Shown one piece after another: positions 42,402-64,000 of a stretch of 64,000 nucleotides of DNA (positions are counted from its first letter, which is position 1; each line of letters begins with the position of its first letter). Both the position numbers and the translations under genes were made by a program. Origin of the DNA: Escherichia coli (GTDB lineage: Bacteria > Pseudomonadota > Gammaproteobacteria > Enterobacterales > Enterobacteriaceae). The stretch lies in NCBI RefSeq assembly GCF_011045215.1, contig NZ_CP049201.1; one strand, given 5' to 3'. Under the pieces are notes generated by a model that saw only the letters and a list, made by a program, of their open reading frames with translations, searched no databases and had not been told where the DNA came from.

Positions 42402-42402
42402 G

Positions 42403-43242: not shown

Positions 43243-43304
43243 TTAAAATGTATCGCAGGTTTTATTTTCTGTAATGCTGGTGCATGTGCGTAAATATTTC
43301 TTAA

Positions 43305-43730: not shown

Positions 43731-43736
43731 GGGAGA

Positions 43737-44506
43737 ATGACAATGATAACAGTATCGCCACACGCTACCGATCAAGACAAATATATTATCTGGCTGAAGC
43801 AAGCTGAATCATTCTGTTCTGCCGCTGGTTTGGATTACATAGATGTGCTTGTTGACCAGGCTGGAACCGACCAACCTTTGCAAAATGATATGCTTCATCT
43901 GTCGCCAGCCATTCACTGGTATGCCCTGTTTGAAGGAACGCCTGAAGCTGAGACGATGGAGTATTCCCCTGTAGTGTTACGCCTGTACTTTGCGCTCAGT
44001 AGCCATCGCAAATTTCTGGCACAACTGATGGCGTCATTTGCTGATACGCCGCGTCTTACTTTGTTGATATCCCCTCTTACATTCGACCTGCTGGGCGGCA
44101 TCTTCAGGTATTGTCACAGGTTCAGTGGGAAGAACAGACCGGATTGCTGCGTTACTATGATAATCGGGTGTTCCCTTTACTGTTCACACATGTTTTGACT
44201 AACGAGCAGCAGGCGACATTTACTGATATTGCGTTGTTCTGGAGCTGGTTAGACCGTGATGGTGAGATTAACTGGAAATCAGGAAGTTTTTCACCAGAAC
44301 GCAGGCTTACTGACAACCCGGAGATGAATCGGGTGGATGATGTACAGGTGGGATTGATGGGCTGTATCTGCGACGCTGAAGTCCTGATGAAGGAGAAAGC
44401 AGTCAGTGAACTCAGTCAGGAAAGCTATTTTGCCCACTGTCTTGATATTGCTTTCAGGGCCAATGACGCGAAATATTTCGGAGCTTTGCGGGACTTCGAA
44501 GGATAA
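43737..44506 (+). pseudogene. T6SS adaptor/chaperone-like gene (DUF4123-type, Tap/Tec family), split across two overlapping reading frames
   Basis: Two overlapping ORFs (43737..44198 and 44111..44506) together span about 256 codons, in the adaptor position between a vgrG 3' end and a DUF2235 effector gene; family assignment is by position and recalled sequence character. Confidence 0.5.
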
Positions 44507-44819
44507 TATTGTGGTGATGTACGGGGAGATTTATCTGTTTAAAAGTCCGTAGCTGTTAATATCAAGAGATAATCGTGAAATAAACGGAAAATCAAGCTCG
44601 ACATGTAATGGTAGTATCCATCATGTTGCATTTGTGTTCGATCGTAATGTCAGTTCACTTGGCTGCAATATATTTTGCGTAATATCATCAATGCTCTGTC
44701 GATATTCCAATGTGTGACAATCGAAAGATATGCATTTTATTTGCTTCTATGTCAAAACTTTATTGTCGTAGAAACAATACCCATCAATTAAAATCTCTCA
44801 AAGTAAAAGAACCAGCAAC

Positions 44820-45362
44820 ATGTCCAGCAAAATAAGAAATGGAATGAATATAACAAAAGTAGTTAAAGGCTGTCTGGTATTAATTTTGATGGTGATTTCT
44901 GGTTGCTCAGCAGATAATTACGACGATTATACTGCAGGTGATCTCCGGGCAATAAATCATATTAAAGGTATCAGTATTAATTGGTTCACCGTAAATGGTT
45001 ATCGGGTCCATGGTTTGGGCGGTGGATATTGCTGCATAATGTTACCAAAGAAGTGGCATTCTGGATTAAAAGCCCGGATCGAGTGGGAAGTAGACCCGAC
45101 CCCCCTTGAACCTATTGCAATGAAAAAAGAAGGTTTTGGCTATGAAGAAGATGCTTATGCTAAACATGCTGCAAATTATCAAAAATATAAAGTAATTGTT
45201 GACATCCCGGAATACGGCGCTGAACGTTGTGGCCTGACCGTTCATTTTCTGCCGTGTAATCAGATTAAAGTGACAACCGTCTGCGAGGGCTATGGCACAC
45301 CGAATTATCCTATCAAAGAACCCCGCGAGATGAAGGAACCTGCAACATGTCCAGCAAAATAA
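44820..45362 (+). CDS. Lipoprotein (180 aa), candidate Tle1-associated immunity or accessory protein (DUF3304-like)
   Basis: Signal peptide with lipobox (LILMVISGCSADN); directly upstream of and overlapping the Tle1-like gene. Confidence 0.55.
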   Translation: MSSKIRNGMNITKVVKGCLVLILMVISGCSADNYDDYTAGDLRAINHIKGISINWFTVNGYRVHGLGGGYCCIMLPKKWHSGLKARIEWEVDPTPLEPIAMKKEGFGYEEDAYAKHAANYQKYKVIVDIPEYGAERCGLTVHFLPCNQIKVTTVCEGYGTPNYPIKEPREMKEPATCPAK

Positions 45363-47440
45363 GTGGTCTGGCTTTTCCGTGTTATGCCCCCCCGGTGTTC
45401 CCTGAAGATGGGCGATTAATATTATCTGAAGCGCAGGTAAACGCGAACTACCTAAAACAAATCAATAAAACAGAAGAGCACAAAACCAACTGTAGTAAAC
45501 AGGCTGGATTTAGAATTGGCTTTACGTGTAATCAAAGTATGCATATTAGTCTGTTTTTTGATGGTACAAATAATAATGAATATAATGACACTCCTGGACA
45601 CCCAACCAATATTGCCAAACTGTTTCATACGACCTATCAGAACGCAGAAGAACAGGGATATTTTAACTACTATATACCGGGTGTAGGCACACCATTTCCC
45701 AAGATAGGTGAAATGGATTACAGCAACAGCGGGCTGGAGTTCGCTACTGGTGGTGAAGATCGAATTAATTGGGCATTATTACGCCTCGTGGATGCCCTGA
45801 GCTATTCCATTGACCCTTCCCATAAGCGACTGGATGATAATGTGGCAAAAGAGCACATTCCTCTTATGCGCGCTCCCTGGCCTATGACTGGTGAAGTGAA
45901 TCGTCGCAATGTGATTAACCCCTACCTGGAAAAATTACAGGGACTGTTAGAGCAAGCCAGTCCGCGCCTGCTAAACGTAAAGCTGTTTATCTACGGATTT
46001 TCCCGTGGCGCAGCGGAAGCACGAACTTTTGTTAACTGGTTGACTCAGTTAGCTTGCCCGCAGGAGCAACAGGTGATGCTGGCCGGGTTAGCTGTCAGTA
46101 TTGAGTTTTTGGGGCTGCTGGATACCGTAGCTTCTGTGGGGGCGGCGCATGTTTTACCGGGCGCTGCCGGTCATATGGGATGGGCCGATAGTACTCAGCA
46201 ACTCCCTGATGAGAGGCAGTTTCCCGGCCTGATTAAATGCTGCCGCCACTTCGTTGCCGCGCATGAGCAGCGGCTGTGCTTTCCGCTGGATTCAATCCGT
46301 CGTCCAGACGGAAATTATCCTTTAAATGCAGAGGAAATTATCTATCCGGGGATGCACTCTGATGTCGGTGGTGGCTATCCCGTTCGCGATCAGGGGAAGT
46401 CCTGTGGTGACTCAGGCGAAATTCTTTCTCAGATAGCACTGCATGATATGTATCTTGCTGCATTTGATTCAGGAGCACCACTTGCTGTTTATTCTAAATT
46501 TGTTACTCCATTAATAAAAGGTGTGTCGCCTCTGCGAATTATGAGTCCTTCTAGCGTAAAGGAATTTACGATTGCTAATTCATTAACAAAACGCTTCAAC
46601 ATCTGGCGACAAACGCTGCTGAACACCACCTTGCAGGGTACAGAAGAAATGATTGATACGAGGGAAGGTTATCACTCCTATCAACTTGCCCAGGTTCTTG
46701 AAAGCGCAATTAGCGATCAGATCGGCTGGATCACCGCCTGGCGTATCGGTCGCTATGCGAATAACAGCCTTCTTGTGCAACCTTTTTATATTAAGGCGCC
46801 ACAGCTGGATAAAGATGGACTTGATAAAGAGGCTAAAGCGCGTAAAGAACAAATGGAAAATATTGAAAAAGAGCGGGCGAACAAGCAGAAAGGGAATGGC
46901 ACACTTGATGAAAGTAATCAGGGCATTCCTATCCTTGACCCAACCAATGCTCAGTATCAGTTGCGAGAGGCAGCCCGAGAATTTCAGAGCGATTATAAAG
47001 GATGGACGCGCGATATTAACGGCAGCGTCATGGAGAAAGCCATTCAGATTCTTGTGGATGTCATTCCTAAATATCCGGTGTATCTGATTAATGGCGATGA
47101 TGAAGCAAAAGAATATCAGCAAATTAAGGCTATGGGAGACGGACTCTATCCACAATTTTTTATTGATTCACTGGGAACGGGAACGCGTACTCAGCCATGC
47201 GCTGAATTACTGGCCCTCTATGATGACCAGGTTCACGACTCCCGCGCCTGGTTTATGCAAAGTTCGCTGGGTGGACGTGAACCCTGGGGCGGTTATTTTC
47301 GCTACCGCATGATTTACTTCGGTGATGAGGCTAATAAAGAGCTGAAGCTAATCTCTGCAGATGGCAAAGTTGTTGGCGATCAGCCCACATCCAACCGGGT
47401 CATTTATTGGATGGAATCGAAAACGGTGAGCCGAGGTTAA
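45347..47440 (+). CDS. Tle1-family T6SS phospholipase effector (DUF2235 alpha/beta-hydrolase, 697 aa)
   Basis: DUF2235 hallmark ISLFFDGTNNNEYND...; nucleophile elbow GxSxG (IYGFSRGAAEAR); vgrG-adaptor-effector gene order. Confidence 0.75.
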   Translation: MSSKISGLAFPCYAPPVFPEDGRLILSEAQVNANYLKQINKTEEHKTNCSKQAGFRIGFTCNQSMHISLFFDGTNNNEYNDTPGHPTNIAKLFHTTYQNAEEQGYFNYYIPGVGTPFPKIGEMDYSNSGLEFATGGEDRINWALLRLVDALSYSIDPSHKRLDDNVAKEHIPLMRAPWPMTGEVNRRNVINPYLEKLQGLLEQASPRLLNVKLFIYGFSRGAAEARTFVNWLTQLACPQEQQVMLAGLAVSIEFLGLLDTVASVGAAHVLPGAAGHMGWADSTQQLPDERQFPGLIKCCRHFVAAHEQRLCFPLDSIRRPDGNYPLNAEEIIYPGMHSDVGGGYPVRDQGKSCGDSGEILSQIALHDMYLAAFDSGAPLAVYSKFVTPLIKGVSPLRIMSPSSVKEFTIANSLTKRFNIWRQTLLNTTLQGTEEMIDTREGYHSYQLAQVLESAISDQIGWITAWRIGRYANNSLLVQPFYIKAPQLDKDGLDKEAKARKEQMENIEKERANKQKGNGTLDESNQGIPILDPTNAQYQLREAAREFQSDYKGWTRDINGSVMEKAIQILVDVIPKYPVYLINGDDEAKEYQQIKAMGDGLYPQFFIDSLGTGTRTQPCAELLALYDDQVHDSRAWFMQSSLGGREPWGGYFRYRMIYFGDEANKELKLISADGKVVGDQPTSNRVIYWMESKTVSRG

Positions 47441-47697
47441 GTTCATAAGATTGAGGGGTTGGTGACCGGGAAAATGTAGACATGTAGTGCCTATTCACCC
47501 CAGTTCAAACCCATCCGCATCCCGCCATGCCGGAAACTTCACACTGTACTCCCAGGGAAAAATCACGTAATGCTGTTTTTTTTGTACTAAATAATTCGCA
47601 TTTTATGTTCAATAATTGAGGTGTTCCTTATTACCTAAAGCTGTTTTTCATTGCTTATACATGATCAAATACTCATTGCATAATTAAGGGGGACAAA

Positions 47698-50480
<2,783 letters not shown>

Positions 50481-50648
50481 CTTACTCTGCAAGGGATGAT
50501 GAAAAGTGCAACTTTATTCCACGCAGCTATTTAGACAGCGTACAGTAAACAAACGAAAGTTGTTATTTCAATGGTCAGGGCAAGAGCATAAAGTGTTTAC
50601 TACACACTATGCTCTTGTCCTGGAGTCAGGTCTTGTTTGGAGGGATAA

Positions 50649-51152
50649 ATGGTAGATATTGTCGAGGCCGATAAAACGGATATTTATTTCATTCAGGAGA
50701 GTGTTTATGGCAAAATCGGGTTGCCAGCTTTTGGTAATACAATAGGACCATCCGCACAGCAGGTTGTTAAAAAGGTATTCGCTGTCGTTAAAGAACGAGA
50801 TAAAACACATGCAAAACAGAGATTATTGTTGGAATATAATGGTAACAAACTCTGGATGAATGCTATTGATGGCAGTGAAGCTATCCTACCAATAGAATTT
50901 TCTAAGCGATACGAACTTTCATTATTCAATACTACTAATTTTGGAGAAGATCCTTTTCCTGATGTTAATTTATATAATAATATGAAATCAAGTTTTTTTG
51001 TAAGGTTTGGTGGAACATCCCATCCCGAGGCTTGGGCTATTTATAATGCAAGTACGAAAGAGGTTAAATATATAGAAACTGCAAGAGAAATTGATAAAAT
51101 ATTCAGTGATTTTAACTTGAGTGGTGCATTGCCAATTCACATTGGTCAATGA
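50649..51152 (+). CDS. Hypothetical protein (167 aa), AT-rich
   Basis: ORF only; no recognised motif. Confidence 0.35.
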   Translation: MVDIVEADKTDIYFIQESVYGKIGLPAFGNTIGPSAQQVVKKVFAVVKERDKTHAKQRLLLEYNGNKLWMNAIDGSEAILPIEFSKRYELSLFNTTNFGEDPFPDVNLYNNMKSSFFVRFGGTSHPEAWAIYNASTKEVKYIETAREIDKIFSDFNLSGALPIHIGQ

Positions 51153-51218
51153 TTTTTTAAATTGTGTGATTAAATAATTGAACATTAATGATGATTTATA
51201 GCATCATTATTCTATAAC

Positions 51219-51731
51219 ATGAATAAACGGATTGAATGTGTTATGTTAAAAATGAGTTTATACGTAATAATATTGTTATTTTCCTTTCAGATTAGTGCAG
51301 CCATTACTAGCAAGGAAAGTGAGGTTGTTTCACCATTATTAATGGATGTTAATTCTTCACTAACAATGGAAAATATTTCTGAATTATCCACATCATCGGA
51401 ACCATCGCAACAGGGGGTATTTCCTGTAATATGTACTCGACTTCATCCTGGTTCCGTAATGAAACGCCAGTTATTAACCGGCTGGGGGCCTGTTTTTATA
51501 ATTGGTGATGATCCTTTTTCTCTGCGCTGGATGAGTGAACATCTGGAGATCCTTAAATCGCTAAATGCCCTTGGTTTGGTTGTTAATGTTGAATCAGTAG
51601 AACGAATGGAGGTATTACAGCAGCGGGCTGATGGGTTATTGTTATTGCCAGTTATCTGCGATAATTTCGTGCAAACTCTGCAATTAAATGCTTATCCGGT
51701 ATTAATCACAGAGATGGAAATATCACAATGA
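51219..51731 (+). CDS. Hypothetical protein (170 aa) with a probable N-terminal signal peptide, AT-rich
   Basis: Hydrophobic N-terminus (LKMSLYVIILLFSFQISAA); no recognised motif. Confidence 0.35.
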   Translation: MNKRIECVMLKMSLYVIILLFSFQISAAITSKESEVVSPLLMDVNSSLTMENISELSTSSEPSQQGVFPVICTRLHPGSVMKRQLLTGWGPVFIIGDDPFSLRWMSEHLEILKSLNALGLVVNVESVERMEVLQQRADGLLLLPVICDNFVQTLQLNAYPVLITEMEISQ

Positions 51732-51754
51732 TTAATAACATAATTACTGCAAAT

Positions 51755-51945
51755 AATATTGTAATTTTGAAAATGGTAATCCTGTTCACGACACCATAAT
51801 TAGAGTTATGTCTTGTATCCGTTCAGTATAATTTCACGAGTGCTTTATTAACTGGATGCGTGACTGCCATTCATCAAATGACAAAGACGTCATCGCGATT
51901 GATGGAAAAGCACTTCCACACTCCTATGATAAAAGTGGTCGCAGG
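51755..51945 (+). pseudogene. Internal fragment of an ISAs1-family (H-repeat) transposase gene (yafF-like remnant)
   Basis: Translates to FENGNPVHDTIIRVMSCI...[39 protein letters not shown], matching ISAs1 transposase codons about 55-118; lies next to yafV, where K-12 carries an H-repeat pseudogene. Confidence 0.7.
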
Positions 51946-52004
51946 AGAGCGGGCTTTCGTAGTCTTCCCCGACTCTCCCCAGCCCTAAACACAACCCCCA
52001 CTCA

Positions 52005-52781
52005 CTACAACCTAAACTCATCCGCATCCCGCCATGCCGGAAACTTATCGCGATATTCCCTTAACACCGCCATCGACAGCTCCGCATCAATGCGCGTTGC
52101 CTGATGCGCGTCGGCAGTAGCGATAATCTCGCCTTGCGGATTAATCACCCGGCTGTCACCGCGATAATGGCAGCCGTTGCCATCGCTGCCGACGCGATTG
52201 CATCCCGCCACATACGCCTGATTCTCAATCGCGCGGGCCGTCAGCAATGCCTGCCAGTGCAGAGAGCGCGGAGCAGGCCAGTTGGCGACGTACAGGGCGA
52301 GGTCATAATCGTTGAGATTGCGCGACCACACAGGAAAACGTAAGTCGTAGCACACCAGCGGCAAAATACGCCAGCCGCGCCATTCCACAATCACTCGCGC
52401 ATTGCCCGATTTATAATGTAGATGCTCATCTGCCATGCGGAACAGATGACGCTTATCATAAAAATGTACCGTGCCGCCCGGCTCAACCAGCAAAAAGCGG
52501 TTAACCGAACCAGACTCCGTTTGTAATGCAACACTGCCTGCAATCAGCGCATTGCACTGCTGCGCTTTAGCTGTCATCCAGTTCACTACGTCATTTTGTG
52601 CTAGCGACGAAGCTGCCGCTTCCATGGCAAAGCCGCTGGTAAACATCTCCGGTAGAACGATCACATCGCGCCCGGTAATACCTTCCAGTTGACGATCAAA
52701 ATGACGCAGGTTGGCAGGACCATCCATCCACACCAGTGGTTGCTGCAAAAGCGTAATCTTCAAACCAGGCACGGTGTACAA
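52005..52781 (-). CDS. yafV: Carbon-nitrogen hydrolase family protein (omega-amidase)
   Basis: 258-aa ORF with nitrilase-superfamily features (..VIVLPEMF.., ..LVCYDLRFP..) in the conserved position upstream of ivy. Confidence 0.88.
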
Positions 52782-52925
52782 CTCCTTTATGCGAAGGGTT
52801 TTATAACTTTAACACCTTATCAGGCAGTTGCCTTAGCGCAGAATAAATTGATAACAAATGCTGATATTGGAAATATCTGATTTGCAAATTATCGTGTTAT
52901 CGCCAGGCTTTAGGAGGTTAATAAC

Positions 52926-53399
52926 ATGGGCAGGATAAGCTCGGGAGGAATGATGTTTAAGGCAATAACGACAGTCGCCGCACTGGTCATCGCCACCAGT
53001 GCAATGGCGCAGGATGATTTAACCATTAGCAGCCTTGCAAAGGGCGAAACCACCAAAGCTGCATTTAATCAGATGGTGCAAGGGCATAAGCTGCCTGCCT
53101 GGGTGATGAAAGGCGGTACTTATACCCCTGCACAAACCGTAACGTTGGGAGATGAGACGTATCAGGTGATGAGCGCGTGCAAACCGCATGACTGTGGCTC
53201 GCAACGTATCGCTGTGATGTGGTCCGAGAAATCTAATCAGATGACGGGGCTGTTCTCGACTATTGATGAGAAAACGTCGCAAGAGAAACTCACCTGGTTG
53301 AATGTGAACGATGCGCTTTCGATTGATGGTAAAACGGTGCTGTTCGCGGCGTTGACCGGCAGCCTGGAAAACCATCCGGATGGCTTTAATTTTAAATAA
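52926..53399 (+). CDS. ivy: Inhibitor of vertebrate lysozyme (periplasmic)
   Basis: 157-aa ORF with signal peptide and the CKPHDC loop motif characteristic of Ivy. Confidence 0.9.
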   Translation: MGRISSGGMMFKAITTVAALVIATSAMAQDDLTISSLAKGETTKAAFNQMVQGHKLPAWVMKGGTYTPAQTVTLGDETYQVMSACKPHDCGSQRIAVMWSEKSNQMTGLFSTIDEKTSQEKLTWLNVNDALSIDGKTVLFAALTGSLENHPDGFNFK

Positions 53400-53441
53400 T
53401 TAGCGGATAAAGAAACGGAGCCTTTCGGCTCCGTTATTCAA

Positions 53442-55886
53442 TTACGCGGCTTCAACTTTCCGCACTTTCTCCGGCAACTTTACCGGCTTCGTCGCCAGCT
53501 CTTCCGGATCAAAGTCATCAACGTTAATACTGCGCAGACGGCTTTCTTCCGCTTTCACCAGAATAGCGGCTTCATCTTTATCAATCAGCCCCTTCGCCAG
53601 CGCGTTGTGCGCCAGTTCATCCAGACGGGTAAATGGCAGATTTTTACCCAGCTCTTTACAGATCCGCTGATGAATCGGGTCGGCGGCAATCACATCCACC
53701 AGCGCCTCTTCCAGTAAACCAACCGGGTTATGCTCGCTCGGCGTCAGGTACTGACCGCGACCAATACGTGAACGAGTGGCGTTCGGCACTTGTAAAATCT
53801 TCGCCACTTTATGATCCAGCTTGTCAGACGGTGCCAGATAATGACGTCCGGTCGGGAAGATCACCACATTCAGCAGCCCGGCAACCACGCGGTTCGGGAA
53901 GTTTTGCAGTAAATCGTCCATCGCCTGTTCTGCCTGATACAGCGCATCCTGTACGCCCCAGTGCACCAGCGGCAGATCGGCTTCATTACGGCCTTCGTCG
54001 TCATAACGCTTCAGAACGGCAGAGGCGAGGTAAAGCTGGCTTAAAATATCCCCCAGACGTGCCGAGATACGCTCACGACGTTTCAGGCTGCCGCCCAGCA
54101 CCGCCATCGAGACATCAGAAAGCAGGGCGAGGTTGGCGCTCAGGCGGTTCAGGTGTTGATAGTAGCGTTTAGTGGCATCGCCGGTTGGCGTGCTGCTGGT
54201 TAAACCGCGCGTCAGGCCCAGCCAGAAGCTGCGAACTTTGTTGCTACCGACGTGACCGATATGTTTGAACAACAGTTTATCGAACGCGTTAACGTCATTG
54301 TTCTTCGCTGCTTCCATCTCTTCCAGCACGTACGGATGGCAACGAATCGCCCCCTGGCCGAAGATCATCATGCTGCGGGTCAGAATGTTAGCCCCTTCAA
54401 CGGTGATGGCAATCGGTGCGCCCTGGTAAGCACGCGCCAGGAAGTTGCTTTGCCCGAGCATAATGCCTTTGCCACCAGTGATATCCATCGCATCAATAAT
54501 CGACTGCTGCCCGCGGTGGGTACAGTGATACTTAACGATAGCCGACAGCACGGCAGGTTTTTCGCCGAGCATAATGCCGTAGGTAATCAGCGATGCCGCA
54601 GCATCCATTACATAAGCGTTCCCGGCAATACGCGCCAGCGGCTCTTCAATCCCTTCCATCTTACCAATAGAAATTTTGAACTGACGACGAATGTGCGCAT
54701 ACGCACCCGTTGCCAGCGCTACTGATTTCACGCCGCCGGTTGAGTTGGAAGGCAGGGTGATGCCGCGGCCTACCGAGAGGCACTCCACCAGCATCCGCCA
54801 GCCTTGCCCGGCCATTTTCGGCCCACCGATGATGTAATCGATCGGTACGAAGACATCTTTACCGCGCGTCGGTCCGTTCTGGAACGGTACGTTCAGCGGG
54901 AAGTGGCGACGACCAATTTCCACGCCCGGCGTGGTGGTCGGGATCAGCGCACAGGTAATACCTAAATCTTCTGTGCCACCCAGCAGCTTTTCCGGGTCGG
55001 AGAGTTTAAACGCCAGCCCAAGCACGGTCGCAATCGGTGCCAGCGTAATGTAGCGTTTGTTCCAGGTCAGTCGCATGCCCAGCACCTGCTGGCCCTGCCA
55101 TTCACCCATGCAGACAATCCCGGTATCCGGAATCGCGCCCGCATCGGAACCCGCTTCCGGGCTGGTTAGTGCAAAGCAAGGGATTTCCTGACCACGCGCC
55201 AGACGCGGCAGATAGTGATCTTTCTGCTCGTCAGTGCCGTAATGTTGCAGCAGCTCGCCCGGGCCTAATGAGTTCGGCACGCCGACGGTAATCGCCAGGA
55301 TCCCGCTCACGCCGGAGAGTTTTTGCAGCACGCGAGACTGGGCATAAGCCGAGAACTCCAGCCCGCCGTACTCTTTTTTGATAATCATCGCGAAGAAACG
55401 ATGCTCTTTAAGGTACGCCCACAACTCCGGCGGCAAATCAGCCAGCTCATGGGTGATCTGGAAATCATTCGCCATCCGGCAGGCTTCTTCTACCGGACCG
55501 TCGAGAAACGCTTGCTCTTCTGCGGTCAGGCGCGGCTGCGGATAGTTATGCAGCTTTTTCCAGTCCGGCTTGCCCTGGAACAAGTCGCCCTCCCACCAGG
55601 TGGTGCCCGCATCAATCGCTTCTTTCTCAGTGCGCGACATCGGCGGCATCACCTTACGGAAACCGCGAAATACCGGCGCGGAAATCATCGACTTACGCAT
55701 AGGCGCAAAGTTAAATGGCACGAGGATAATGGCCAGAGGCACCAGTACCCACGCCGACCACAGACCAGCAACGCCGAGGGCGGCTGTCCAGGCGAGCAAA
55801 ATCAGACTGCTGATAAATAAGCTCACGCGGTGATAGAACAACGCGCCGAGCAGGAGAACCGTAGCGAGAATACTCAAAATCATCAT
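53442..55886 (-). CDS. fadE: Acyl-CoA dehydrogenase FadE
   Basis: The 840-aa ORF contains the FadE sequence from the internal Met ([21 protein letters not shown]...); trimmed to 814 aa. Confidence 0.9.
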
Positions 55887-56125
55887 AACGAAAAGCCCCT
55901 TACTTGTAGGAGGTCTGACCACTTGTGATGATATGGTTGTAGTGGATGTAAAAACATTTAGCAATGTGTTTACAATATAATTACAACAAAGCTCACATTG
56001 TTGCTGTTTTTATCCGCACTTCAGGTCAAAAAGTCCTGGTCATAGCACCTGCCCGTACTTCTCGCTTTTGGCGGTATCCGGTACACTGCATTTTGTCTAT
56101 TACATTTATGCTGAAGGATATCCTC

Positions 56126-56704
56126 ATGTACCAGGATCTTATTCGTAACGAACTGAACGAAGCGGCGGAAACGCTGGCTAACTTTTTAAAAGATGACGCC
56201 AATATTCACGCCATTCAGCGCGCGGCGGTCCTGTTAGCAGACAGCTTTAAAGCCGGTGGCAAAGTGCTTTCCTGCGGCAACGGCGGTTCCCATTGCGACG
56301 CCATGCACTTTGCCGAAGAGTTGACCGGTCGCTACCGTGAAAACCGTCCGGGCTACCCGGCGATTGCCATTTCTGACGTTAGTCATATTTCCTGCGTCGG
56401 TAATGATTTCGGTTTCAATGATATTTTCTCCCGCTACGTTGAAGCGGTAGGCCGCGAAGGCGATGTACTGCTGGGGATCTCCACATCTGGTAACTCTGCA
56501 AACGTGATCAAAGCGATCGCAGCGGCGCGTGAGAAGGGGATGAAAGTGATCACCCTGACCGGTAAAGACGGCGGCAAAATGGCTGGCACGGCGGATATCG
56601 AAATTCGCGTTCCGCACTTTGGTTATGCCGACCGCATTCAGGAGATTCACATTAAAGTGATCCATATCCTGATCCAGTTGATTGAAAAAGAGATGGTTAA
56701 GTAA
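56126..56704 (+). CDS. gmhA: Phosphoheptose isomerase (sedoheptulose-7-phosphate isomerase)
   Basis: [21 protein letters not shown]... with SIS-domain motifs; start taken at the internal Met of ORF 55964..56704 (192 aa). Confidence 0.92.
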
Positions 56705-56709
56705 GTCTG

Positions 56710-56850
56710 GCGTAGGCCGGATAAGACGTTTACGCCGCATCCGGCATTTGTGCGCTGATGCCTGATGCGACGCTGACGCGTCTTATCATGCCTACAAATC
56801 TGTACGCGAACCGTAGGCCGAATAATGCGTTCACGCCGCATCCGACCTGA
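56710..56850. repeat. REP/BIME palindromic repeats (intergenic)
   Basis: Repeated GCCGGATGCGGCGTAAACG..CTTATCCGGCCTAC-type imperfect palindromes. Confidence 0.8.
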
Positions 56851-56909
56851 AAATTCTTAAATCAATCTTCGCCGGGGGCCATGCGCTCCCGCTGTTGTGG
56901 AGGTTACCC

Positions 56910-57677
56910 ATGTGCGAATTGCTCGGGATGAGCGCCAACGTCCCTACCGATATCTGCTTTAGTTTCACCGGTCTGGTGCAGCGTGGTGGTGGAACCGGGC
57001 CACATAAAGATGGCTGGGGCATTACCTTTTACGAAGGTAAAGGCTGTCGCACATTTAAAGATCCGCAACCCAGCTTTAACTCACCTATCGCCAAACTGGT
57101 CCAGGACTACCCGATAAAATCCTGTTCGGTGGTGGCTCATATTCGCCAGGCTAATCGGGGCGAGGTGGCGCTGGAAAATACTCACCCGTTTACCCGCGAG
57201 TTATGGGGGCGTAACTGGACTTATGCCCATAACGGGCAACTGACGGGCTACAAATCACTGGAAACCGGCAACTTCCGCCCGGTAGGCGAAACCGACAGCG
57301 AAAAAGCCTTCTGCTGGCTCCTGCATAAATTAACGCAGCGTTACCCGCGCACACCGGGCAACATGGCGGCGGTATTTAAATATATCGCCTCACTGGCGGA
57401 TGAACTGCGGCTGAAGGGCGTTTTCAACATGCTGCTTTCTGACGGGCGCTATGTGATGGCATATTGCTCGACTAATTTACACTGGATCACCCGCCGCGCG
57501 CCGTTTGGCGTGGCAACGTTGCTGGATCAGGATGTGGAAATCGACTTCAGCTCGCAGACCACACCGAATGATGTGGTCACGGTGATTGCAACACAGCCGC
57601 TGACGGGCAATGAAACCTGGCAAAAGATTATGCCAGGCGAATGGCGCTTATTTTGCCTCGGGGAGCGTGTAGTTTGA
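56910..57677 (+). CDS. yafJ: Class II glutamine amidotransferase-like protein
   Basis: [10 protein letters not shown]... with N-terminal Cys nucleophile after the initiator Met; 255 aa; conserved position. Confidence 0.88.
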
Positions 57678-58388
57678 TGCCAGCTGTGGTTGCACAACTT
57701 CGTGGCTTAACGGCTTGCTGACCACGTAACGACCATTGACCACAGAAACGGTCGGTGGCTTACGGGTTTGCTCAAAGTAGTCGTAACCCGGCTTCAGTTG
57801 CTCCCAGAAGTCCTTAAAGTCGGAATATTTATGGCGCTTCATATTAGCGTCGGTCATGCGGAACGGGTAAATACTCACTTGCACGCTCGGCTGACCAAAC
57901 ACCAGCGCACCAGTAACGAACTGGAAGATCTCATCAATACCCTGATTGGTCATCGCGTAGCAGCCGATGGAAACACAATCGCCGTGGATCATCAGGTATT
58001 TCCCTTCATAACCATGCGCACGGTCATAGGCATTGGGGAAACCAATATTAATCGCTTTGTAGTAACGGCTGTCTGGTTTTAACTGATTACGCTGGACGCT
58101 ATAAAACCCTTCCGGGCTTTTGAAATCGCCCTGACGCTGTTTTGGCCCTAAGCCGCCGGAATATTTACAGATTTTATAACTGTCGAGCAGCTGATATTGC
58201 TCGCCCATTTTGACGTAGAGATCGAGCGTACGTTCTTCCTTGAAGATCTGGATGTAGACAGGGGATCCCATCAACTGCTGCTTATACTCTTTGCTCACTG
58301 GCGTGGTCGAGCTACTGCTGCCCAGCAAACCGGCAAACGAAACGCACGGGATCAACAACATCGCAAGAATTAATGCGATTTTACGCAT
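57648..58388 (-). CDS. yafK: L,D-transpeptidase-like periplasmic protein
   Basis: 246-aa ORF with signal peptide and YkuD-type catalytic motif ([12 protein letters not shown]). Confidence 0.88.
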
Positions 58389-58543
58389 ACTGCTTATTCC
58401 TTGATAAAACGGTTACACACGCCAGGACGGCAAAATGGATCCCAAATCGGAATAGTCTGGATTTGGAAGGCTCACATTATCACCAAAAGAGTTTTACGCA
58501 AGCCTGTCGGCGCAGGGTTTACAAATTTCATCGGAAGCGGGCT

Positions 58544-58822
58544 TTACCCAAAGAGCGCCGCGTGAGTTCCAGTTCTCTCAAATCGTAAAAGTTTATCGGT
58601 AAGTTTGTAAATCAGGATCCAGTCCGGTTCGACATGAGCATCGCGATAACCTTTCCATGAACCTTGCAGCGGGTGGTCTTTATAAACAGCTGGAAGCGGT
58701 AAAGTATTATTGATAAGAAGCGTCATAAGATATTTCAATTTATTCATATCCATATGACGCTTTTGTGCAAGTTTTACATCCTTTGAAAATTGTCCCGAGT
58801 ATTCAATATCCCTTTGAAACAT
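58544..58822 (-). CDS. yafQ: YafQ toxin (RelE/ParE-fold mRNA interferase)
   Basis: 92-aa ORF immediately downstream of dinJ in the conserved dinJ-yafQ operon. Confidence 0.9.
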   Translation of the reverse strand: MFQRDIEYSGQFSKDVKLAQKRHMDMNKLKYLMTLLINNTLPLPAVYKDHPLQGSWKGYRDAHVEPDWILIYKLTDKLLRFERTGTHAALFG

Positions 58823-58824
58823 AT

Positions 58825-59085
58825 TTAAATTCCTAATTTATCAAATAAATCATCGGCGTCTTTGGCCTTATGAACATCAACGCCAGCTTCGCTGTTTTTG
58901 ATTGATTGAATAGTTAATTGATTAGGCTCGCGTAAATCAAACGGCAATGCCTTTTCACGCGCGACCTTTGTGAGGGTTATGCGAACCAGGTCAGAGATGG
59001 TCAGCCCCATCCCGGCCAGTACGTCCGCCGCCTGATTCTTCAGATCTTCATCGATTCGTGCGCGAACAAACGCGTTAGCAGCCAT
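58825..59085 (-). CDS. dinJ: DinJ antitoxin
   Basis: 86-aa ORF MAANAFVRARIDEDLKNQAADVLAGMGLTISDLVRITLTKVAREKALPFDL...; LexA box upstream. Confidence 0.9.
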   Translation of the reverse strand: MAANAFVRARIDEDLKNQAADVLAGMGLTISDLVRITLTKVAREKALPFDLREPNQLTIQSIKNSEAGVDVHKAKDADDLFDKLGI

Positions 59086-59101
59086 TGGGGTATCTCCTGT
59101 G

Positions 59102-59117
59102 CTGTATATTTATTCAG
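59102..59117. promoter_or_regulatory. LexA box (SOS operator) in the dinJ promoter region
   Basis: CTGTATATTTATTCAG fits the CTGT-N8-ACAG-type LexA consensus. Confidence 0.7.
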
Positions 59118-59294
59118 CTTGAATTGTAGCTCAAATGAGCAACAGCGGCAATTCATGAGCAATTCAATAAACTGATGTATTTACATAATTCACTGAAATA
59201 TATATGTTAATTTTATAATAATGGTTTATTAAGTTTGTTCAGAAACGATCCGGGATACACTGCAACATTAAAGCATGACCAGCCATTATTGAGT

Positions 59295-60044
59295 ATGTCC
59301 TTGCCGTCGATTCCATCCTTTGTATTGTCGGGATTACTGTTGATTTGTTTGCCGTTTTCTTCATTTGCCAGCGCCACCACATCACATATCTCTTTCAGCT
59401 ACGCCGCCCGCCAGCGGATGCAAAACCGTGCGCGTTTATTAAAACAGTACCAAACCCATCTGAAAAAACAGGCCAGCTATATTGTGGAAGGCAATGCCGA
59501 AAGCAGAAGGGCGCTACGCCAGCACAACCGGGAGCAGATAAAACAGCATCCAGAATGGTTTCCTGCACCGCTCAAGGCGAGTGACAGACGCTGGCAGGCG
59601 CTGGCGGAAAACAACCACTTTCTAAGCAGTGACCATCTGCATAACATCACCGAAGTGGCGATTCACCGCCTGGAACAGCAACTTGGCAAGCCTTACGTCT
59701 GGGGCGGCACGCGGCCCGATAAAGGCTTCGACTGTAGCGGGTTGGTTTTTTATGCCTACAACAAGATCCTTGAGGCTAAGCTCCCGCGCACAGCCAATGA
59801 GATGTATCACTACCATCGGGCAACGATTGTGGCGAACAACGACCTGCGCCGGGGAGATTTGCTGTTTTTCCATATTCACAGTCGTGAGATTGCCGACCAT
59901 ATGGGGGTGTATCTGGGCGACGGTCAGTTTATTGAGTCAACGCGCACCGGGGAAACCATTCGGGTATGTCGGTTAGCTGAACCTTTCTGGCAGGATCATT
60001 TTTTAGGCGCGCGGCGGATTTTGACGGAGGAGACGATTTTGTAG
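59295..60044 (+). CDS. yafL: NlpC/P60-family peptidase lipoprotein
   Basis: Start taken at the internal Met (MSLPSIPSFVLSGLLLICL...); NlpC/P60 catalytic Cys context (GFDCSGLVFYAY) and His (HMGVYLG). Confidence 0.85.
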   Translation: MSLPSIPSFVLSGLLLICLPFSSFASATTSHISFSYAARQRMQNRARLLKQYQTHLKKQASYIVEGNAESRRALRQHNREQIKQHPEWFPAPLKASDRRWQALAENNHFLSSDHLHNITEVAIHRLEQQLGKPYVWGGTRPDKGFDCSGLVFYAYNKILEAKLPRTANEMYHYHRATIVANNDLRRGDLLFFHIHSREIADHMGVYLGDGQFIESTRTGETIRVCRLAEPFWQDHFLGARRILTEETIL

Positions 60045-60125
60045 GACGGATAAGGCGTTTACGCCGCATCCGGCAATTGTGCGCGGATGCCTGATGCGAC
60101 GCTGACGCGTCTTATCAGTATCTAC
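60045..60125. repeat. REP palindromic repeats upstream of rayT
   Basis: GGCGTTTACGCCGCATCCGGCA..TGCCTGATGCGACGCTGACGCGTCTTATC REP-type units. Confidence 0.8.
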
Positions 60126-60220: not shown

Positions 60221-60718
60221 ATGTCGGAATATCGTCGTTATTACATCAAGGGGGGAACATGGTTTTTCACGGTAAATTTACGGAATCGTCGAAGCCATCT
60301 TCTGACCACCCAGTTCCAGACGCTCCGTAACGCCATTATTAACGTTAGGCGAGACAGACCTTTTGAAATTAACGCCTGGGTCGTTTTGCCGGAGCATATG
60401 CATTGCATATGGACATTACCCGAAAGCGATGATGATTTTTCCTCTCGCTGGCGGGAGATTAAAAAGCAATTCACCCATGCTTGTGGATTGAAAAATATCT
60501 GGCAACCGCGTTTTTGGGAGCATGCCATTCGTAATACAAAAGACTATCGCCATCATGTTGATTATATTTATATAAATCCAGTGAAACATGGTTGGGTAAA
60601 GCAGGTGAGTGATTGGCCATTCTCAACGTTCCATCGCGATGTAGCGCGAGGGTTATATCCCATCAATTGGGCGGGAGACGTTACGGATTTGAGTGCCGGG
60701 GAGCGTATTATTTTATAA
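60221..60718 (+). CDS. rayT: REP-associated tyrosine transposase (RAYT, HUH superfamily)
   Basis: 165-aa ORF with the HUH motif (PEHMHCIW) and conserved Tyr region; flanked by REP arrays on both sides. Confidence 0.88.
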   Translation: MSEYRRYYIKGGTWFFTVNLRNRRSHLLTTQFQTLRNAIINVRRDRPFEINAWVVLPEHMHCIWTLPESDDDFSSRWREIKKQFTHACGLKNIWQPRFWEHAIRNTKDYRHHVDYIYINPVKHGWVKQVSDWPFSTFHRDVARGLYPINWAGDVTDLSAGERIIL

Positions 60719-60721
60719 TTG

Positions 60722-61135
<414 letters not shown>

Positions 61136-61137
61136 TC

Positions 61138-62865
61138 TTACATCAACGCCCCCATAATCTTCAACTCCAGCTCGTCCGGCACTTCATTATACGACAGCAC
61201 ATGCAGTCCCGGCGCAAACAATCTCGCATAGCGCGCCAGCAAAGGGCGAAGCTGCGGCGGCACCAGCAGCACCGGGTCTTTCCCCGCCGCTTTCATCTGC
61301 TCTTTTACCTGCGGCATCGTGTTCTGGAACTGGTTGAGCATATTCGGGTCGACCGGCACGCTGTCGAGCATCACTTTCCCGCCCTGTTGCGCCTGATTCA
61401 CCACGTTGGTCAGCAGATTTTCCAGCTCATTATTCAGCGTATACACCGTCAGCTCCTGCTTGCGAACAAACGGATGGGTAATGCTGCGCCGCAGCGCCAG
61501 GCGCACATCGGCTGCCAGCAGAATATGATCTTTGGTCACCGCGCTACTGGCGACCAGCACGGTGGCGATGGTGACGATATCGCGCAGGGAAACGCCTTCA
61601 GTCAGCAGCGCCCGGTACACTTTCAGCAACTGGCTGTAATTGAGCGCCGCGCTTAAATCCTCCGCCAGGCGCGGTGCCATCGACGACAAACGATTATGCA
61701 ACTGCGTAATATCATCATAGTTAAACAAATCAGGAATATAGCTACGCACAATCTTATTCACATGGGTGGCAATCACGCTGGCGCTGTCGATCACCTGATA
61801 CCCCATATTCAGCGCCTTCGCTTTCTGCGCGGGCTGGATCCAGGTCACCGGCATCCCATACGCCGGGTCGTTCCCCAGCACGCCGTCTATCTCGCCGTAG
61901 GTTTCGCTGGAGGGCAGGGCCATCAGTTTATCCGCCGGAATATCCGCTTCATCAGCCTTTATGCCGTTGATGAAAATGGCGTACTGGCTGGGCTTAAGGC
62001 GGAAGTTTTCCCGAATGCGGATCTCCGGCAGCAGCACGCCGTTGCCGTCGGATATCACCTGCCGCACGCCGCGAATCCGCTGGGTGAGCGGGTTGCCCTG
62101 TGCTTTATCGACCAGCGCCACCAGCTTGTAACCGAGGCTTAAACTGATAGGCTCAATCAGCGGTATCGTTTCCCAACTGACCTGCTGCTCGCTGGTTTCG
62201 GTGATGGTGCGGGTCAGCGTTTCGAGGCTTTTCTCTTCCGCCTCCGCCGCCTGCGGGCGTTTGCTCATCCGCCAGCCGGTAAAGCCAAGCAGGGCGCTGA
62301 ACAGCAAAAATGGCAGGTGCGGCATTCCCGGCACCACCGCCAGCACGAACATAATTCCGGTGGCGGTGTAGAGCACCGACGGGCTCGCCAGCAACTGGTG
62401 GCGCACGTCATGGGCGATATCGCCGTTGTCGCTGACGCGGGTAACGATAATCGCCGCCGCGGTGGAAAGCAGCAGGGAAGGGATCTGCGCCACCAGCCCG
62501 TCGCCGATGGTCATCAGCACATACTGCTGGAAGGCGGCATCGGCGCTCAGGTTGTATTTAAATATCCCGATACAGACGCCGCCGATCAGGTTGATGGCCA
62601 GAATCATCATCCCGGCGATGGCATCCCCGCGCACAAACTTCGATGCCCCGTCCATCGCGCCGTAGAAATCGGCCTCGCTGGCGACATCTTTACGCCGGGT
62701 TTGCGCCTGCGCCTGGTTGATCAACCCGGCGTTAAGATCGGCGTCAATCGCCATCTGCTTGCCGGGCATCGCGTCCAGGGTGAAGCGGGCAGAAACCTCG
62801 GAAATACGCTCGGCCCCTTTGGTGACGACGATAAAGTTGATTGTAAACAGCGTCAGTAAATCCGA
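61138..62865 (-). pseudogene. lfhA: lfhA: N-terminally truncated FlhA-family (lateral flagellar export apparatus) gene, Flag-2 remnant
   Basis: Reverse-strand translation matches FlhA from about residue 95 (NFIVVTKGAERISEVSARFTLDAMPGKQMAIDADLNAGLI...FVRGDAIAG...) to the C-terminus; no N-terminal membrane region; the ORF continues upstream as antisense lafU. Confidence 0.8.
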
Positions 62866-63607
62866 GCGTGAAAGCATTATCGCCGCGCTGCACGGGCAGT
62901 CGATTTTCAACGGTGGCGGGCTGTCGCCGTTAAATAAAATCAGTCCGACGCATCCGCCGAAACCTGCCACCGTGGCGGTGCCGGAAGAGACGGAGAAAAA
63001 AGTGCGCGACGTCAACGAGAAAACGGCGCTGCTGAAGAAGAAATCCGCCACCGAGCTTGGCGAGCTGGCAACCAGTATCAACACCATCGCCCGTGATGCG
63101 CATATGGAAGCGAATCTGGAGATGGAGATTGTCCCGCAGGGATTACGCGTGCTGATTAAAGACGACCAGAACCGCAATATGTTTGAACGCGGCAGCGCGA
63201 AGATTATGCCGTTCTTTAAAACGCTGCTGGTGGAGTTAGCGCCAGTGTTCGACTCGCTCGATAACAAAATTATTATTACCGGGCATACCGATGCGATGGC
63301 CTACAAAAACAATATCTACAACAACTGGAACCTTTCGGGTGACCGCGCGCTTTCGGCTCGTCGGGTGCTGGAAGAGGCCGGAATGCCGGAAGATAAAGTG
63401 ATGCAGGTAAGCGCAATGGCGGATCAGATGCTGCTGGACGCCAAAAATCCGCAAAGCGCGGGCAACCGGCGCATTGAGATTATGGTGCTGACTAAAAGCG
63501 CGTCCGATACGCTGTATCAATACTTTGGTCAGCATGGAGATAAAGTGGTGCAGCCGCTGGTGCAAAAGCTGGATAAGCAGCAGGTGCTTTCACAACGAAC
63601 GCGCTAA
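62866..63607 (+). pseudogene. lafU: lafU: truncated MotB-like (lateral flagellar stator) gene retaining the OmpA-like C-terminal domain, Flag-2 remnant
   Basis: ORF 62717..63607 carries a MotB/OmpA-like peptidoglycan-binding domain (ITGHTDAMAY...NWNLSGDRALSARRVL...NRRIEIMV), but its first 50 or so codons are antisense lfhA sequence, so there is no genuine N-terminus. Confidence 0.75.
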
Positions 63608-63645
63608 ATGCTGAATCTTTACGCATTTCTCAAACCCTGAAATCA

Positions 63646-63661
63646 CTGTATACTTTACCAG
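63646..63661. promoter_or_regulatory. LexA box (SOS operator) of dinB
   Basis: CTGTATACTTTACCAG located about 17 nt upstream of the dinB start codon. Confidence 0.8.
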
Positions 63662-63677
63662 TGTTGAGAGGTGAGCA

Positions 63678-64000
63678 ATGCGTAAAATCATTCATGTGGA
63701 TATGGACTGCTTTTTCGCAGCGGTGGAGATGCGCGACAATCCCGCCCTGCGCGATATCCCTATTGCTATTGGCGGCAGCCGCGAACGTCGGGGGGTGATC
63801 AGCACCGCCAATTATCCCGCGCGTAAATTTGGCGTACGTAGCGCTATGCCGACAGGGATGGCGCTCAAATTATGCCCGCATCTCACCTTGCTTCCGGGGC
63901 GCTTTGACGCCTACAAAGAAGCCTCAAATCATATCCGTGAAATCTTCTCGCGCTACACCTCGCGCATTGAACCGTTGTCACTGGATGAAGCTTATCTCGA
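63678..64000 (+). CDS. dinB: DNA polymerase IV (Y-family), 5' part only (gene runs off the window end)
   Basis: [34 protein letters not shown]... (Y-family polymerase N-terminus with the DMDCFFA motif). Confidence 0.92.

What the first reader, a model, noticed from the sequence alone, without database searches (positions are those of the whole stretch)
61138..63607. Flag-2 lateral flagellar locus deletion scar: lfhA' and lafU' fragments fused in opposite orientation
A 709-codon minus-strand ORF is a chimera: its C-terminal 570 or so residues are FlhA-like (lacking the N-terminal membrane region) and its N-terminal part is antisense to a MotB-like gene on the plus strand. The junction lies at about 62860..62880, consistent with the known deletion of the Flag-2 cluster that leaves only end fragments. 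It is flanked by a dense REP array and rayT.
Basis: partly seen in the sequence, partly recalled or inferred. Interest (0 to 1): 0.3.

Follow-up and report, generated by a model that had tools for sequence, protein, structure and literature searches.

The report
Flag-2 lateral flagella deletion scar
This is the well-known scar left in most E. coli when the ~35-38 kb second (lateral) flagellar gene cluster was deleted; the only surprise is that the same breakpoint occurs in several other genera and the two leftover gene halves show almost no decay.

Summary
Window 61138-63607 is the K-12-type Flag-2 deletion scar. It consists of the 3' 1,704 nt of lfhA (codons 131-697, minus strand) joined head-to-head to the 3' 766 nt of lafU (from codon 53, plus strand). 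rayT and a 101-bp-period REP array lie on one side and dinB on the other. The missing segment is 38.0 kb in strain REF2 and 35.3 kb in ST540. About 75% of 5,426 complete E. coli genomes carry this scar. It is already known (Ren et al. 2005; De Maayer et al. 2020).

One thing was not stated in the papers I could read. The same nucleotide junction occurs in eight lineages (Escherichia, Citrobacter, Kluyvera, Atlantibacter, a Cedecea-like Enterobacter sp., others). Flanking bases are lineage-specific, both remnant frames are open, and dN/dS is 0.02-0.09. My best explanation is a single old "empty-site" allele. It is swapped with the full locus by homologous recombination through the two remnants, so the remnants are repeatedly renewed from functional genes. 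Direct selection on the remnants is not excluded.

The parts
60041..60117 (.). REP pair upstream of rayT
   Evidence: It is the reference copy of the 77-nt repeat family D2, which is 92-96% identical to the copies in the array.
60221..60718 (+). rayT (REP-associated tyrosine transposase, 165 aa)
   Evidence: ORF listed. NCBIfam NF047646 scores 176.7 bits against a cutoff of 80. PGAP calls the homologous gene rayT.
60747..61135 (.). REP/BIME-like array with a 101-nt period, lying between the rayT stop and the lfhA' stop
   Evidence: the repeat finder family D1 has 3 copies of 187 nt at 101-nt spacing. Family D2 has 77-nt units at 60778, 60879, 60980 and 61081.
61138..62841 (-). lfhA' remnant: codons 131-697 of the lateral-flagellar FlhA homologue plus its stop (1,704 nt). 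It has no native promoter or start codon.
   Evidence: Collinear with intact lfhA of REF2 up to L003 4475. FHIPEP match. TIGR01398 FlhA model positions 118-677, scoring 591 bits, below the full-length cutoff of 772. The frame is open.
62836..62841 (.). Deletion junction: exact microhomology GAT at 62839-62841, within the imperfect repeat GT(T/G)GAT
   Evidence: Three-way alignment of the window with both ends of the intact locus. The same nucleotide position is used in seven other lineages.
62842..63607 (+). lafU' remnant: from the third base of codon 53 to the stop of the MotB-like lateral stator gene. The TM helix with its conserved Asp is deleted.
   Evidence: Collinear with intact lafU from L003 42489. 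OmpA domain present, MotB_plug absent. NCBIfam LafU NF005273, model positions 42-297. The intact N-terminus is shown.
61138..63267 (-). Mechanical 709-codon chimeric ORF: 142 codons antisense to lafU' followed by 567 lfhA' codons
   Evidence: Listed. The upstream extension is not conserved: Citrobacter has a stop just upstream of the junction, and Kluyvera extends 107 codons.
62822..63607 (+). The 261-aa 'LafU' CDS as PGAP calls it in homologous loci (GTG start). Its first ~7 codons are antisense lfhA.
   Evidence: Coordinates transferred from L001 5625-6410. The longest ORF starts at TTG 62717.
63678..64000 (+). 5' part of dinB (DNA polymerase IV), 70 nt downstream of lafU'
   Evidence: Translation begins [20 protein letters not shown]. 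Collinear with REF2 dinB.

Best explanation
Window 61138-63607 is the K-12-type 'empty-site' allele of the Flag-2 (lateral flagellar) locus. One illegitimate deletion joined codon 131 of lfhA to codon 53 of lafU at a 2-3 nt microhomology. These are the two outward-facing terminal genes of the cluster. The deletion removed about 35-38 kb and left two promoterless, head-to-head 3' fragments. Up to here the account is shown by the alignments. The rest is inferred. This single junction has persisted as a presence/absence polymorphism alongside the full locus. Homologous recombination through the 1.7-kb lfhA' and 0.77-kb lafU' remnants, acting as homology arms, converts scar to full locus and back, and short-tract conversion shuffles variants between the two allele classes. 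The remnant sequences therefore spend most of their history inside functional genes. That would explain why they look constrained and rarely carry frameshifts although they are non-functional in scar-bearing cells.
For: Identity and breakpoints. Known description: PMC6993521 and PMC3032704.

Single junction: the same nucleotide position is used in E. coli, E. albertii, Citrobacter sp. MGH106, Kluyvera ascorbata, Atlantibacter subterranea, Enterobacter sp. Ap-916 and two further lineages. The microhomology is only 2-3 nt.

Exchange with intact alleles:
- Scar and intact alleles interleave in the dS matrix.
- The K-12 scar is identical to the ST540 intact allele for 380 nt (lfhA side) and 65 nt (lafU side) next to the breakpoint. 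Beyond that they differ in blocks at about 4.6%.
- Diversity among scars does not fall near the junction (pi about 0.03 on both sides).
- Atlantibacter scar and intact alleles are 99.1% identical, and 30/30 at the breakpoint.
- ST131's ancestral subclade has the scar and later subclades have a 'Flag-2 insertion' (PMC5369007).
- Scars occur mainly in taxa that also hold intact loci. About 25% of genomes are intact in both E. coli and E. albertii.

Mild recent relaxation: singleton counts on scars are 74 S: 12 N (lfhA') and 19 S: 9 N (lafU'). On intact alleles they are 19:1 and 8:1, and in dinB 15:2.

Decay does occur: E. albertii has a 22-nt deletion with the first stop at codon 336, and Shigella and E. 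coli have truncated forms.

No signs of expression: no conserved start codon, no promoter enrichment (5 sites against 3.9 expected), LafU' lacks its TM helix and Asp, and lafU is reported as not detectably expressed (PMC8824477).
Against: A back-of-envelope estimate using typical E. coli recombination (r/m about 1; my own knowledge, not a tool result) predicts far more neutral time on the scar background than is observed. Excess non-synonymous change allows only about 0.0005-0.001 substitutions per site per lineage. The sampling also found 0 of 10 E. coli-type scars with a broken frame, and 16 of the 17 complete lfhA' scar remnants examined open across eight lineages.

Sharing one junction across genera, with lineage-specific bases right up to the breakpoint, requires one of two things. 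Either the polymorphism is older than the genus splits, or the scar was transferred between genera and the donor flanks were then completely erased.

Some 'intact' loci are themselves decaying: ST540 has internal stops in fliK and a regulator. This weakens the supposed source of constraint.
Confidence: 0.65

Rival explanations
1. The remnants are not dead. Truncated LfhA (cytoplasmic FHIPEP loop, four TM segments and the C-terminal domain) and/or anchorless LafU are translated from starts near the junction. They are kept by direct purifying selection in scar-bearing cells, so the 'scar' is a conserved two-gene arrangement.
For: - Both frames are open in 10/10 E. coli-type scars and in Citrobacter, Kluyvera, Atlantibacter (2), Ap-916, L025 and L026.
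- dN/dS is 0.02-0.05 for lfhA' and 0.03-0.09 for lafU', even scar against scar. The two Atlantibacter scars differ by 15 S and 0 N.
- Segregating sites are 209 S: 20 N, the same ratio as functional dinB.
- There are no indels in 1.7 kb at about 20% divergence.
- Both breakpoints fall at the ends of TM helices, so each remnant is a whole set of domains.
- PGAP's LafU model scores the remnant above its cutoff.
Against: - No start codon is conserved upstream of either remnant. The ATG/GTG/TTG options vary with synonymous choices on the other strand.
- The lfhA' upstream extension is interrupted in Citrobacter.
- Promoter-like sites are not enriched.
- LafU' lacks the TM helix and any export signal, so its peptidoglycan-binding domain would stay in the cytoplasm.
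- lafU is reported as not detectably expressed and has no synthetic phenotype.
- Equal constraint on both fragments is more simply explained by a shared population-genetic cause.
- Frameshifted scars exist.
- Scar alleles are mosaics of intact alleles.
Confidence: 0.12
2. The same deletion arises again and again, independently, from intact loci in each lineage through some site-specific or strongly favoured mechanism. On this view every scar is young and simply mirrors its parental intact allele.
For: - Flanking bases are lineage-specific up to the junction on both sides.
- Scars cluster with the intact alleles of their own genus or phylogroup.
- The scar occurs in different chromosomal contexts: Ap-916/Cedecea next to LacI-PTS-folD, and Atlantibacter without dinB.
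- There is no detectable relaxation of constraint.
Against: - The breakpoints share only 2-3 nt (GAT or AT), with no extended similarity between the two sites.
- No recombinase site, REP hairpin or mobile-element end lies at either breakpoint.
- rayT and REPs are absent from the Citrobacter, Atlantibacter and Ap-916 loci.
- Illegitimate deletion across about 38 kb would be expected to use many different endpoints, yet every truncated form I checked breaks before INF.
- The one documented recent change runs from scar to full locus, not the reverse.
Confidence: 0.08
3. The arrangement results from an inversion or a more complex rearrangement rather than a simple deletion, or the ORF is a chance product.
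For: The two fragments lie on opposite strands.
Against: In intact loci lfhA is on the minus strand at the left end and lafU on the plus strand at the right end. Both flanks of the window are collinear with them in the same orientation. The FHIPEP match has E = 5.7e-189.
Confidence: 0.01

Closest known systems
Flag-2 deletion scar of E. coli K-12/B: lfhA (fhiA, b0229) and lafU (mbhA, b0230) pseudogene fragments (Ren et al. 2005, as cited in PMC6993521 and PMC3032704)
   Same: The same two fragments of the same lengths (1,704 and 766 nt), the same junction nucleotide, and the same yafL-rayT...dinB context. The window aligns end to end at 96.0% with K-12.
   Different: The window's allele is about 4% diverged from every one of 5,426 complete E. 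coli genomes (best 96.7%). It has 13 private variants in each remnant. Three of those in lafU' are non-synonymous.
Intact Flag-2 locus (lfhAB-lfiRQPNM ... lafTU) of E. coli 042, REF2 and ST540
   Same: The remnants are collinear with the outer 3' parts of its two terminal genes.
   Different: The interior 35.3-38.0 kb (about 40 genes), lfhA codons 1-130 and lafU codons 1-52 are absent.
Replacement of whole gene clusters by homologous recombination through conserved flanks (for example O-antigen or capsule locus switching). This comparison is to the mechanism only and comes from my own knowledge.
   Same: Presence/absence or type switching without a dedicated recombinase. It produces mosaic flanks, and alleles are decoupled from the clonal frame.
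   Different: Here the homology arms are the truncated halves of the cluster's own terminal genes. The 'empty' allele has one fixed junction shared across genera.

Membership tests
K-12-type Flag-2 deletion scar | The 3' fragment of lfhA (about 1.7 kb) is present and the N-terminal coding part is missing. | tested here: met
   1,704 nt are collinear with intact lfhA codons 131-697. PGAP notes 'missing N-terminus' in homologues.
K-12-type Flag-2 deletion scar | The 3' fragment of lafU (about 0.77 kb) directly abuts lfhA', head-to-head, with no interior Flag-2 genes between them. | tested here: met
   The two alignments meet and overlap at window 62836-62841.
K-12-type Flag-2 deletion scar | The junction is at the same nucleotide as in K-12. 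| tested here: met
   K-12 DHB4 (L016) and eight other E. coli scars give remnants of identical length and frame. The junction sequence is identical except for window 62845 A versus C.
K-12-type Flag-2 deletion scar | The chromosomal context is yafL / rayT-REP on one side and dinB on the other. | tested here: met
FlhA / FHIPEP export-gate protein (functional member) | Full-length protein of about 690 aa with the complete N-terminal membrane domain. | tested here: not met
   The match starts at FHIPEP profile position 99 and at TIGR01398 position 118. The score of 591 is below the cutoff of 772. Residues 1-130, including hydrophobic segments 7-66 and 108-143, are deleted.
MotB/LafU stator subunit (functional member) | N-terminal TM helix with the conserved Asp, plus the plug segment. 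| tested here: not met
   MotB_plug (residues 19-70 in intact LafU) is not detected in the remnant. The intact N-terminus ...WKVAFADFTLAMMALFMTLW|IVNS is cut after W52.
MotB/LafU stator subunit (functional member) | C-terminal OmpA-like peptidoglycan-binding domain. | tested here: met
   PF00691, E = 3e-14. NF005273 LafU, 474 bits against a cutoff of 383.
Expressed, selected gene (as opposed to pseudogene) | Open frame with dN/dS well below 1. | tested here: inconclusive
   This is met numerically. However, it is confounded by recombination with intact alleles.
Expressed, selected gene (as opposed to pseudogene) | Conserved start codon, RBS and promoter, and evidence of expression. | tested here: not met
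   There is no conserved start across lineages and no promoter enrichment. The literature reports no detectable expression. Direct expression data cannot be tested with these tools.

The most novel reading that the evidence does not exclude
The K-12-type 'scar' may not be a pair of dead fragments. It could be a conserved arrangement under direct purifying selection: a truncated FlhA-like protein and/or an anchorless LafU, kept with one invariant junction across at least six enterobacterial genera. A less radical version is that it is a single-origin empty-site allele older than the genus splits, held as a balanced presence/absence polymorphism. I give that weaker version a probability of about 0.35.
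Probability: 0.12. Interest if true: 0.65.

Novelty: already known. Interest (0 to 1): 0.3.

Why it matters
The scar itself is a textbook annotation item (b0229/b0230), so finding it here adds nothing. What may be worth a short follow-up is the population genetics. One deletion junction is shared from Escherichia to Cedecea-like bacteria, and it sits on lineage-specific flanks. Two 'pseudogenes' keep 567- and 254-codon frames open with dN/dS equal to that of the functional neighbour dinB. If this reflects allelic exchange, it is a clean natural example of gene remnants acting as landing pads that allow a 38-kb organelle locus to be lost and regained. It would also be a warning that low dN/dS and intact frames do not prove function. 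If it instead reflects direct selection, two long-standing K-12 pseudogenes would need re-annotation.

Tried and rejected
- I tried to read Ren et al. 2005 (PMC545627), but it is not held. Its content is cited only through later papers and, where marked, from memory.
- I looked for a recent inter-genus transfer of the scar. Identity next to the junction (0.85-0.87) is no higher than elsewhere, so this was rejected.
- I looked for a collapse of diversity among E. coli scars near the junction, as expected for a recent single origin with linked flanks. None was found.
- I looked for extended homology, a REP hairpin or a recombinase-like site at the breakpoints. Only GAT/AT microhomology is present.
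- I looked for a conserved start codon or N-terminal extension for either remnant. None exists.
- The promoter scan gave no enrichment.
- Literature searches for expression or function of lafU, lfhA, mbhA and fhiA found only 'not detectably expressed' and one 5-residue crosslinked peptide.
- The GTDB junction scan used a pattern fixed on GTTGATTGT. It therefore missed Atlantibacter-type junctions (GTTAATCGT), and its six hits are a lower bound.
- Nei-Gojobori dS values above 1 are saturated and should be read only qualitatively.
Full report
**What is there**

The window from 57.6 kb to its end matches the E. coli neighbourhood dpaA / yafQ-dinJ / yafL / rayT / REP array / partial FlhA / lafU / dinB. 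Inside the finding's span, the ORF listing gives the 709-codon minus-strand ORF at 61138..63267 and a plus-strand ORF at 62717..63607.

Pfam places FHIPEP on residues 139-700 of the 709-aa ORF, starting at profile position 99 of 657. It finds an OmpA-type domain in the plus-strand ORF. Intact LfhA matches FHIPEP from position 1. Intact LafU carries an extra MotB_plug domain at residues 19-70 that the remnant lacks.

NCBIfam gives the same picture:
- The FlhA model matches from position 118 and scores 591 bits, below the full-length cutoff of 772.
- The LafU model matches from position 42 and scores 474 bits, above its cutoff of 383. This is why PGAP annotates lafU as an ordinary CDS in scar genomes.
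- RayT scores 176.7 bits against a cutoff of 80.

The REP array has a 101-nt period and runs from 60747 to 61135, with one more REP pair at 60041-60117. dinB starts at 63678.

**Mapping the deletion**

I aligned the window to the intact Flag-2 locus of E. coli REF2 (L003). There lfhA is a 697-aa gene on the minus strand at the left end and lafU a 307-aa gene on the plus strand at the right end.
- The window is collinear with the lfhA end up to 62841 and with the lafU end from 62836.
- The three-way alignment shows an exact GAT (62839-62841) shared by both ends, within an imperfect GT(T/G)GAT.
- The missing interior is 38,019 bp in REF2 and 35,315 bp in ST540.
- lfhA' keeps codons 131-697 (567 codons plus the stop). 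lafU' starts inside codon 53.

The opposite orientation is the native outward orientation of the two terminal genes, so no inversion is involved.

Hydropathy and the intact sequences show what was lost:
- LfhA loses residues 1-130, including hydrophobic segments 7-66 and 108-143. It keeps the segments at 202-314 and the C-terminal domain.
- LafU loses its whole TM helix and conserved Asp (...WKVAFADFTLAMMALFMTLW|IVNS...).

**How common it is, and whether it is known**

Of 5,426 complete E. coli genomes, 4,071 carry the whole span. About 1,350 match only the lfhA part there and hold lafU elsewhere, which means they have an intact locus. De Maayer et al. 2020 report 24% intact in E. coli, with all the remaining strains carrying the truncated pair. 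[quoted passage not shown] 2005. Archer et al. 2011 name the K-12 and B remnants fhiA and mbhA.

**What I did not expect**

A wobble-tolerant junction pattern, scanned over one genome per GTDB species, hit several taxa:
- E. albertii
- a second E. coli-labelled species representative
- Citrobacter sp. MGH106
- Kluyvera ascorbata
- two MAG contigs that look like E. coli contamination

Citrobacter and Kluyvera align contiguously across the junction at only 79-80% identity.

A protein search with LfhA' returned truncated forms at 70-85% identity. All of them switch to FlhA sequence at exactly ...|INF(I/V)VVTKGAER. At the DNA level the junction is at the same nucleotide in Atlantibacter subterranea (two genomes), Enterobacter sp. 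Ap-916 and two further lineages. That position is after the AT of the LafU Trp-Ile codon and before LfhA Ile131. Eight lineages share it.

The chromosomal context differs in some of them. Ap-916 and its intact relative Cedecea neteri have LacI, PTS and folD genes beside lfhA.

The bases flanking the junction are lineage-specific on both sides. The Atlantibacter scar equals the Atlantibacter intact allele at 30 of 30 positions next to the breakpoint. Identity near the junction between genera is not elevated.

**The remnants do not look like old pseudogenes**

- lfhA' is open and free of indels in the window, nine E. coli scars, one MAG contig (L007), Citrobacter, Kluyvera, two Atlantibacter genomes, Ap-916, L025 and L026. 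lafU' is likewise open wherever it could be examined; its only indels are multiples of three confined to the linker.
- Nei-Gojobori dN/dS is 0.02-0.05 for lfhA' and 0.03-0.09 for lafU', including scar-against-scar comparisons. Window versus E. coli L001 gives 59 S and 4 N. The two Atlantibacter scars give 15 S and 0 N. Citrobacter versus Kluyvera gives 0.018.
- Among ten E. coli-type scars there are 209 synonymous and 20 non-synonymous segregating sites in lfhA' (ratio 0.031) and 54:12 in lafU' (0.066). Functional dinB in the same genomes gives 87:7 (0.025).
- The probability of so few non-synonymous sites under neutrality is 4e-103 for lfhA' and 5e-24 for lafU'.
- Mean pairwise dS is high, at 0.20.

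**Discriminating the explanations**

First, recent spread of one haplotype is rejected. Diversity among scars next to the junction is about 0.03 on both sides, as high as further away.

Second, scars and intact alleles are interleaved:
- The K-12 scar is closest to ST540 intact (dS 0.094).
- A36 and GU2018 are closest to REF2 intact (0.13-0.14).
- K-12 and ST540 are identical for 380 nt (lfhA side) and 65 nt (lafU side) from the breakpoint. They then differ in blocks at about 4.6%, which is a short-tract recombination mosaic.

Third, exchange between the two states is documented. In ST131 the ancestral subclade B1 has the ~1,700-bp and 769-bp fragments, and later subclades have a 'Flag-2 locus insertion'.

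Fourth, scars are found mainly where intact loci also circulate. Intact frequencies are Kluyvera 44%, Cedecea 75%, Citrobacter clade A 58%, Escherichia 24% and E. albertii about 25%.

Fifth, the youngest variants hint at mild relaxation on scars. Singletons are 74 S: 12 N and 19 S: 9 N on scars, against 19:1 and 8:1 on intact alleles and 15:2 in dinB. The excess corresponds to roughly 0.0005-0.001 substitutions per site of neutral time per scar lineage. That would predict about 0.3 disrupting mutations per lineage. Observing none in ten lineages is marginally compatible with this (P about 0.06; this is my own arithmetic and assumes that about 15% of mutations are disrupting).

Sixth, decay does occur:
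- E. albertii's type strain has a 22-nt deletion with its first stop at codon 336.
- A cluster of truncated forms includes Shigella.
- In-frame internal deletions and duplications occur in both allele classes.

Seventh, nothing points to expression:
- No start codon is conserved.
- The upstream extension is not conserved.
- Promoter-like sites are not enriched.
- LafU' has no membrane anchor.
- lafU is reported as undetectable under laboratory conditions.

**Best explanation and rivals**

I conclude, with confidence about 0.65 for the whole statement and near certainty for the identity of the scar, that this is a single old empty-site allele. It is exchanged with the full locus by homologous recombination through the two remnants.

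Direct selection on the remnants (0.12) remains possible. The degree of constraint is striking, and a rough estimate with ordinary E. coli recombination rates predicts more decay than is seen.

Recurrent precise deletion (0.08) would explain the lineage-specific flanks. However, it has no mechanism: the breakpoints share only 2-3 nt of microhomology, and no REP hairpin or recombinase site is present.

**Limits**

- Ren et al. 2005 could not be read.
- The E. coli sample was ten scars and two intact loci.
- dS values above 1 are saturated.
- The junction scan pattern misses some variants, so the taxonomic range is a lower bound.
- The source organism of the window was not identified beyond 'Escherichia coli-like, about 96-98% identical to the nearest complete genomes'.

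Noticed in passing
window 61138-63607 and 40000-60000: No complete E. coli genome out of 5,426 exceeds 96.7% identity over the scar, or about 98% over the 20 kb upstream. The window therefore comes from a lineage or haplotype not represented in that collection. The source organism was not identified.
   Followed up: partly
window 61138-64000; loci L001, L016-L023: Synonymous diversity at this locus is unusually high within E. coli. Mean pairwise dS is 0.20 in lfhA', 0.12 in lafU' and 0.16 in dinB (up to 0.30), with a block-wise mosaic structure. This suggests a recombination hot region or long-lived alleles.
   Followed up: partly
L024 (E. coli ST540, NZ_CP007390.1) 11706-12767 and 16463-17305: This otherwise complete Flag-2 locus carries internal stops in fliK and in a winged-helix regulator gene. 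'Intact' loci in E. coli are therefore not necessarily functional.
   Followed up: no
window 58544-59085 (minus strand): The yafQ-dinJ toxin-antitoxin pair lies between dpaA and yafL in the window and in L001. It is absent from the two intact-locus genomes examined (L002, L003).
   Followed up: no
loci L017, L020, L022 (equivalent to window 60221-61137): The rayT/REP segment next to lfhA' is variable. rayT has an internal stop in O157:H7 AC-3, is replaced by a hicAB toxin-antitoxin pair in STEC17-190, and is absent in strain A36. The Citrobacter, Atlantibacter and Ap-916 scars have no rayT at all.
   Followed up: no
summary (E. coli collection): Seventeen of the matches to the scar span lie on plasmids rather than chromosomes. 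I did not examine what these are.
   Followed up: no
L007 (MAG 'Clostridiales bacterium' SFGJ01000062.1) and L008 (MAG 'Collinsella sp.' JAIJJM010000815.1): Two short contigs binned into Gram-positive MAGs carry an E. coli-type scar at about 96% identity to the window. This is almost certainly contamination or mis-binning.
   Followed up: partly
window 61138-62841 versus the whole window: G+C content is 58.6% in lfhA' and 53.4% in lafU', against 49.1% for the window. This agrees with the positive G+C deviation of Escherichia Flag-2 loci reported by De Maayer et al.
   Followed up: no
window 40000-53000: Homologous E. coli regions are annotated there with a type VI secretion VgrG, a Tle1-like phospholipase effector, an M35 metalloendopeptidase and ISAs1 transposases. 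Only 2 of 5,426 genomes cover at least 80% of this 20-kb stretch.
   Followed up: no
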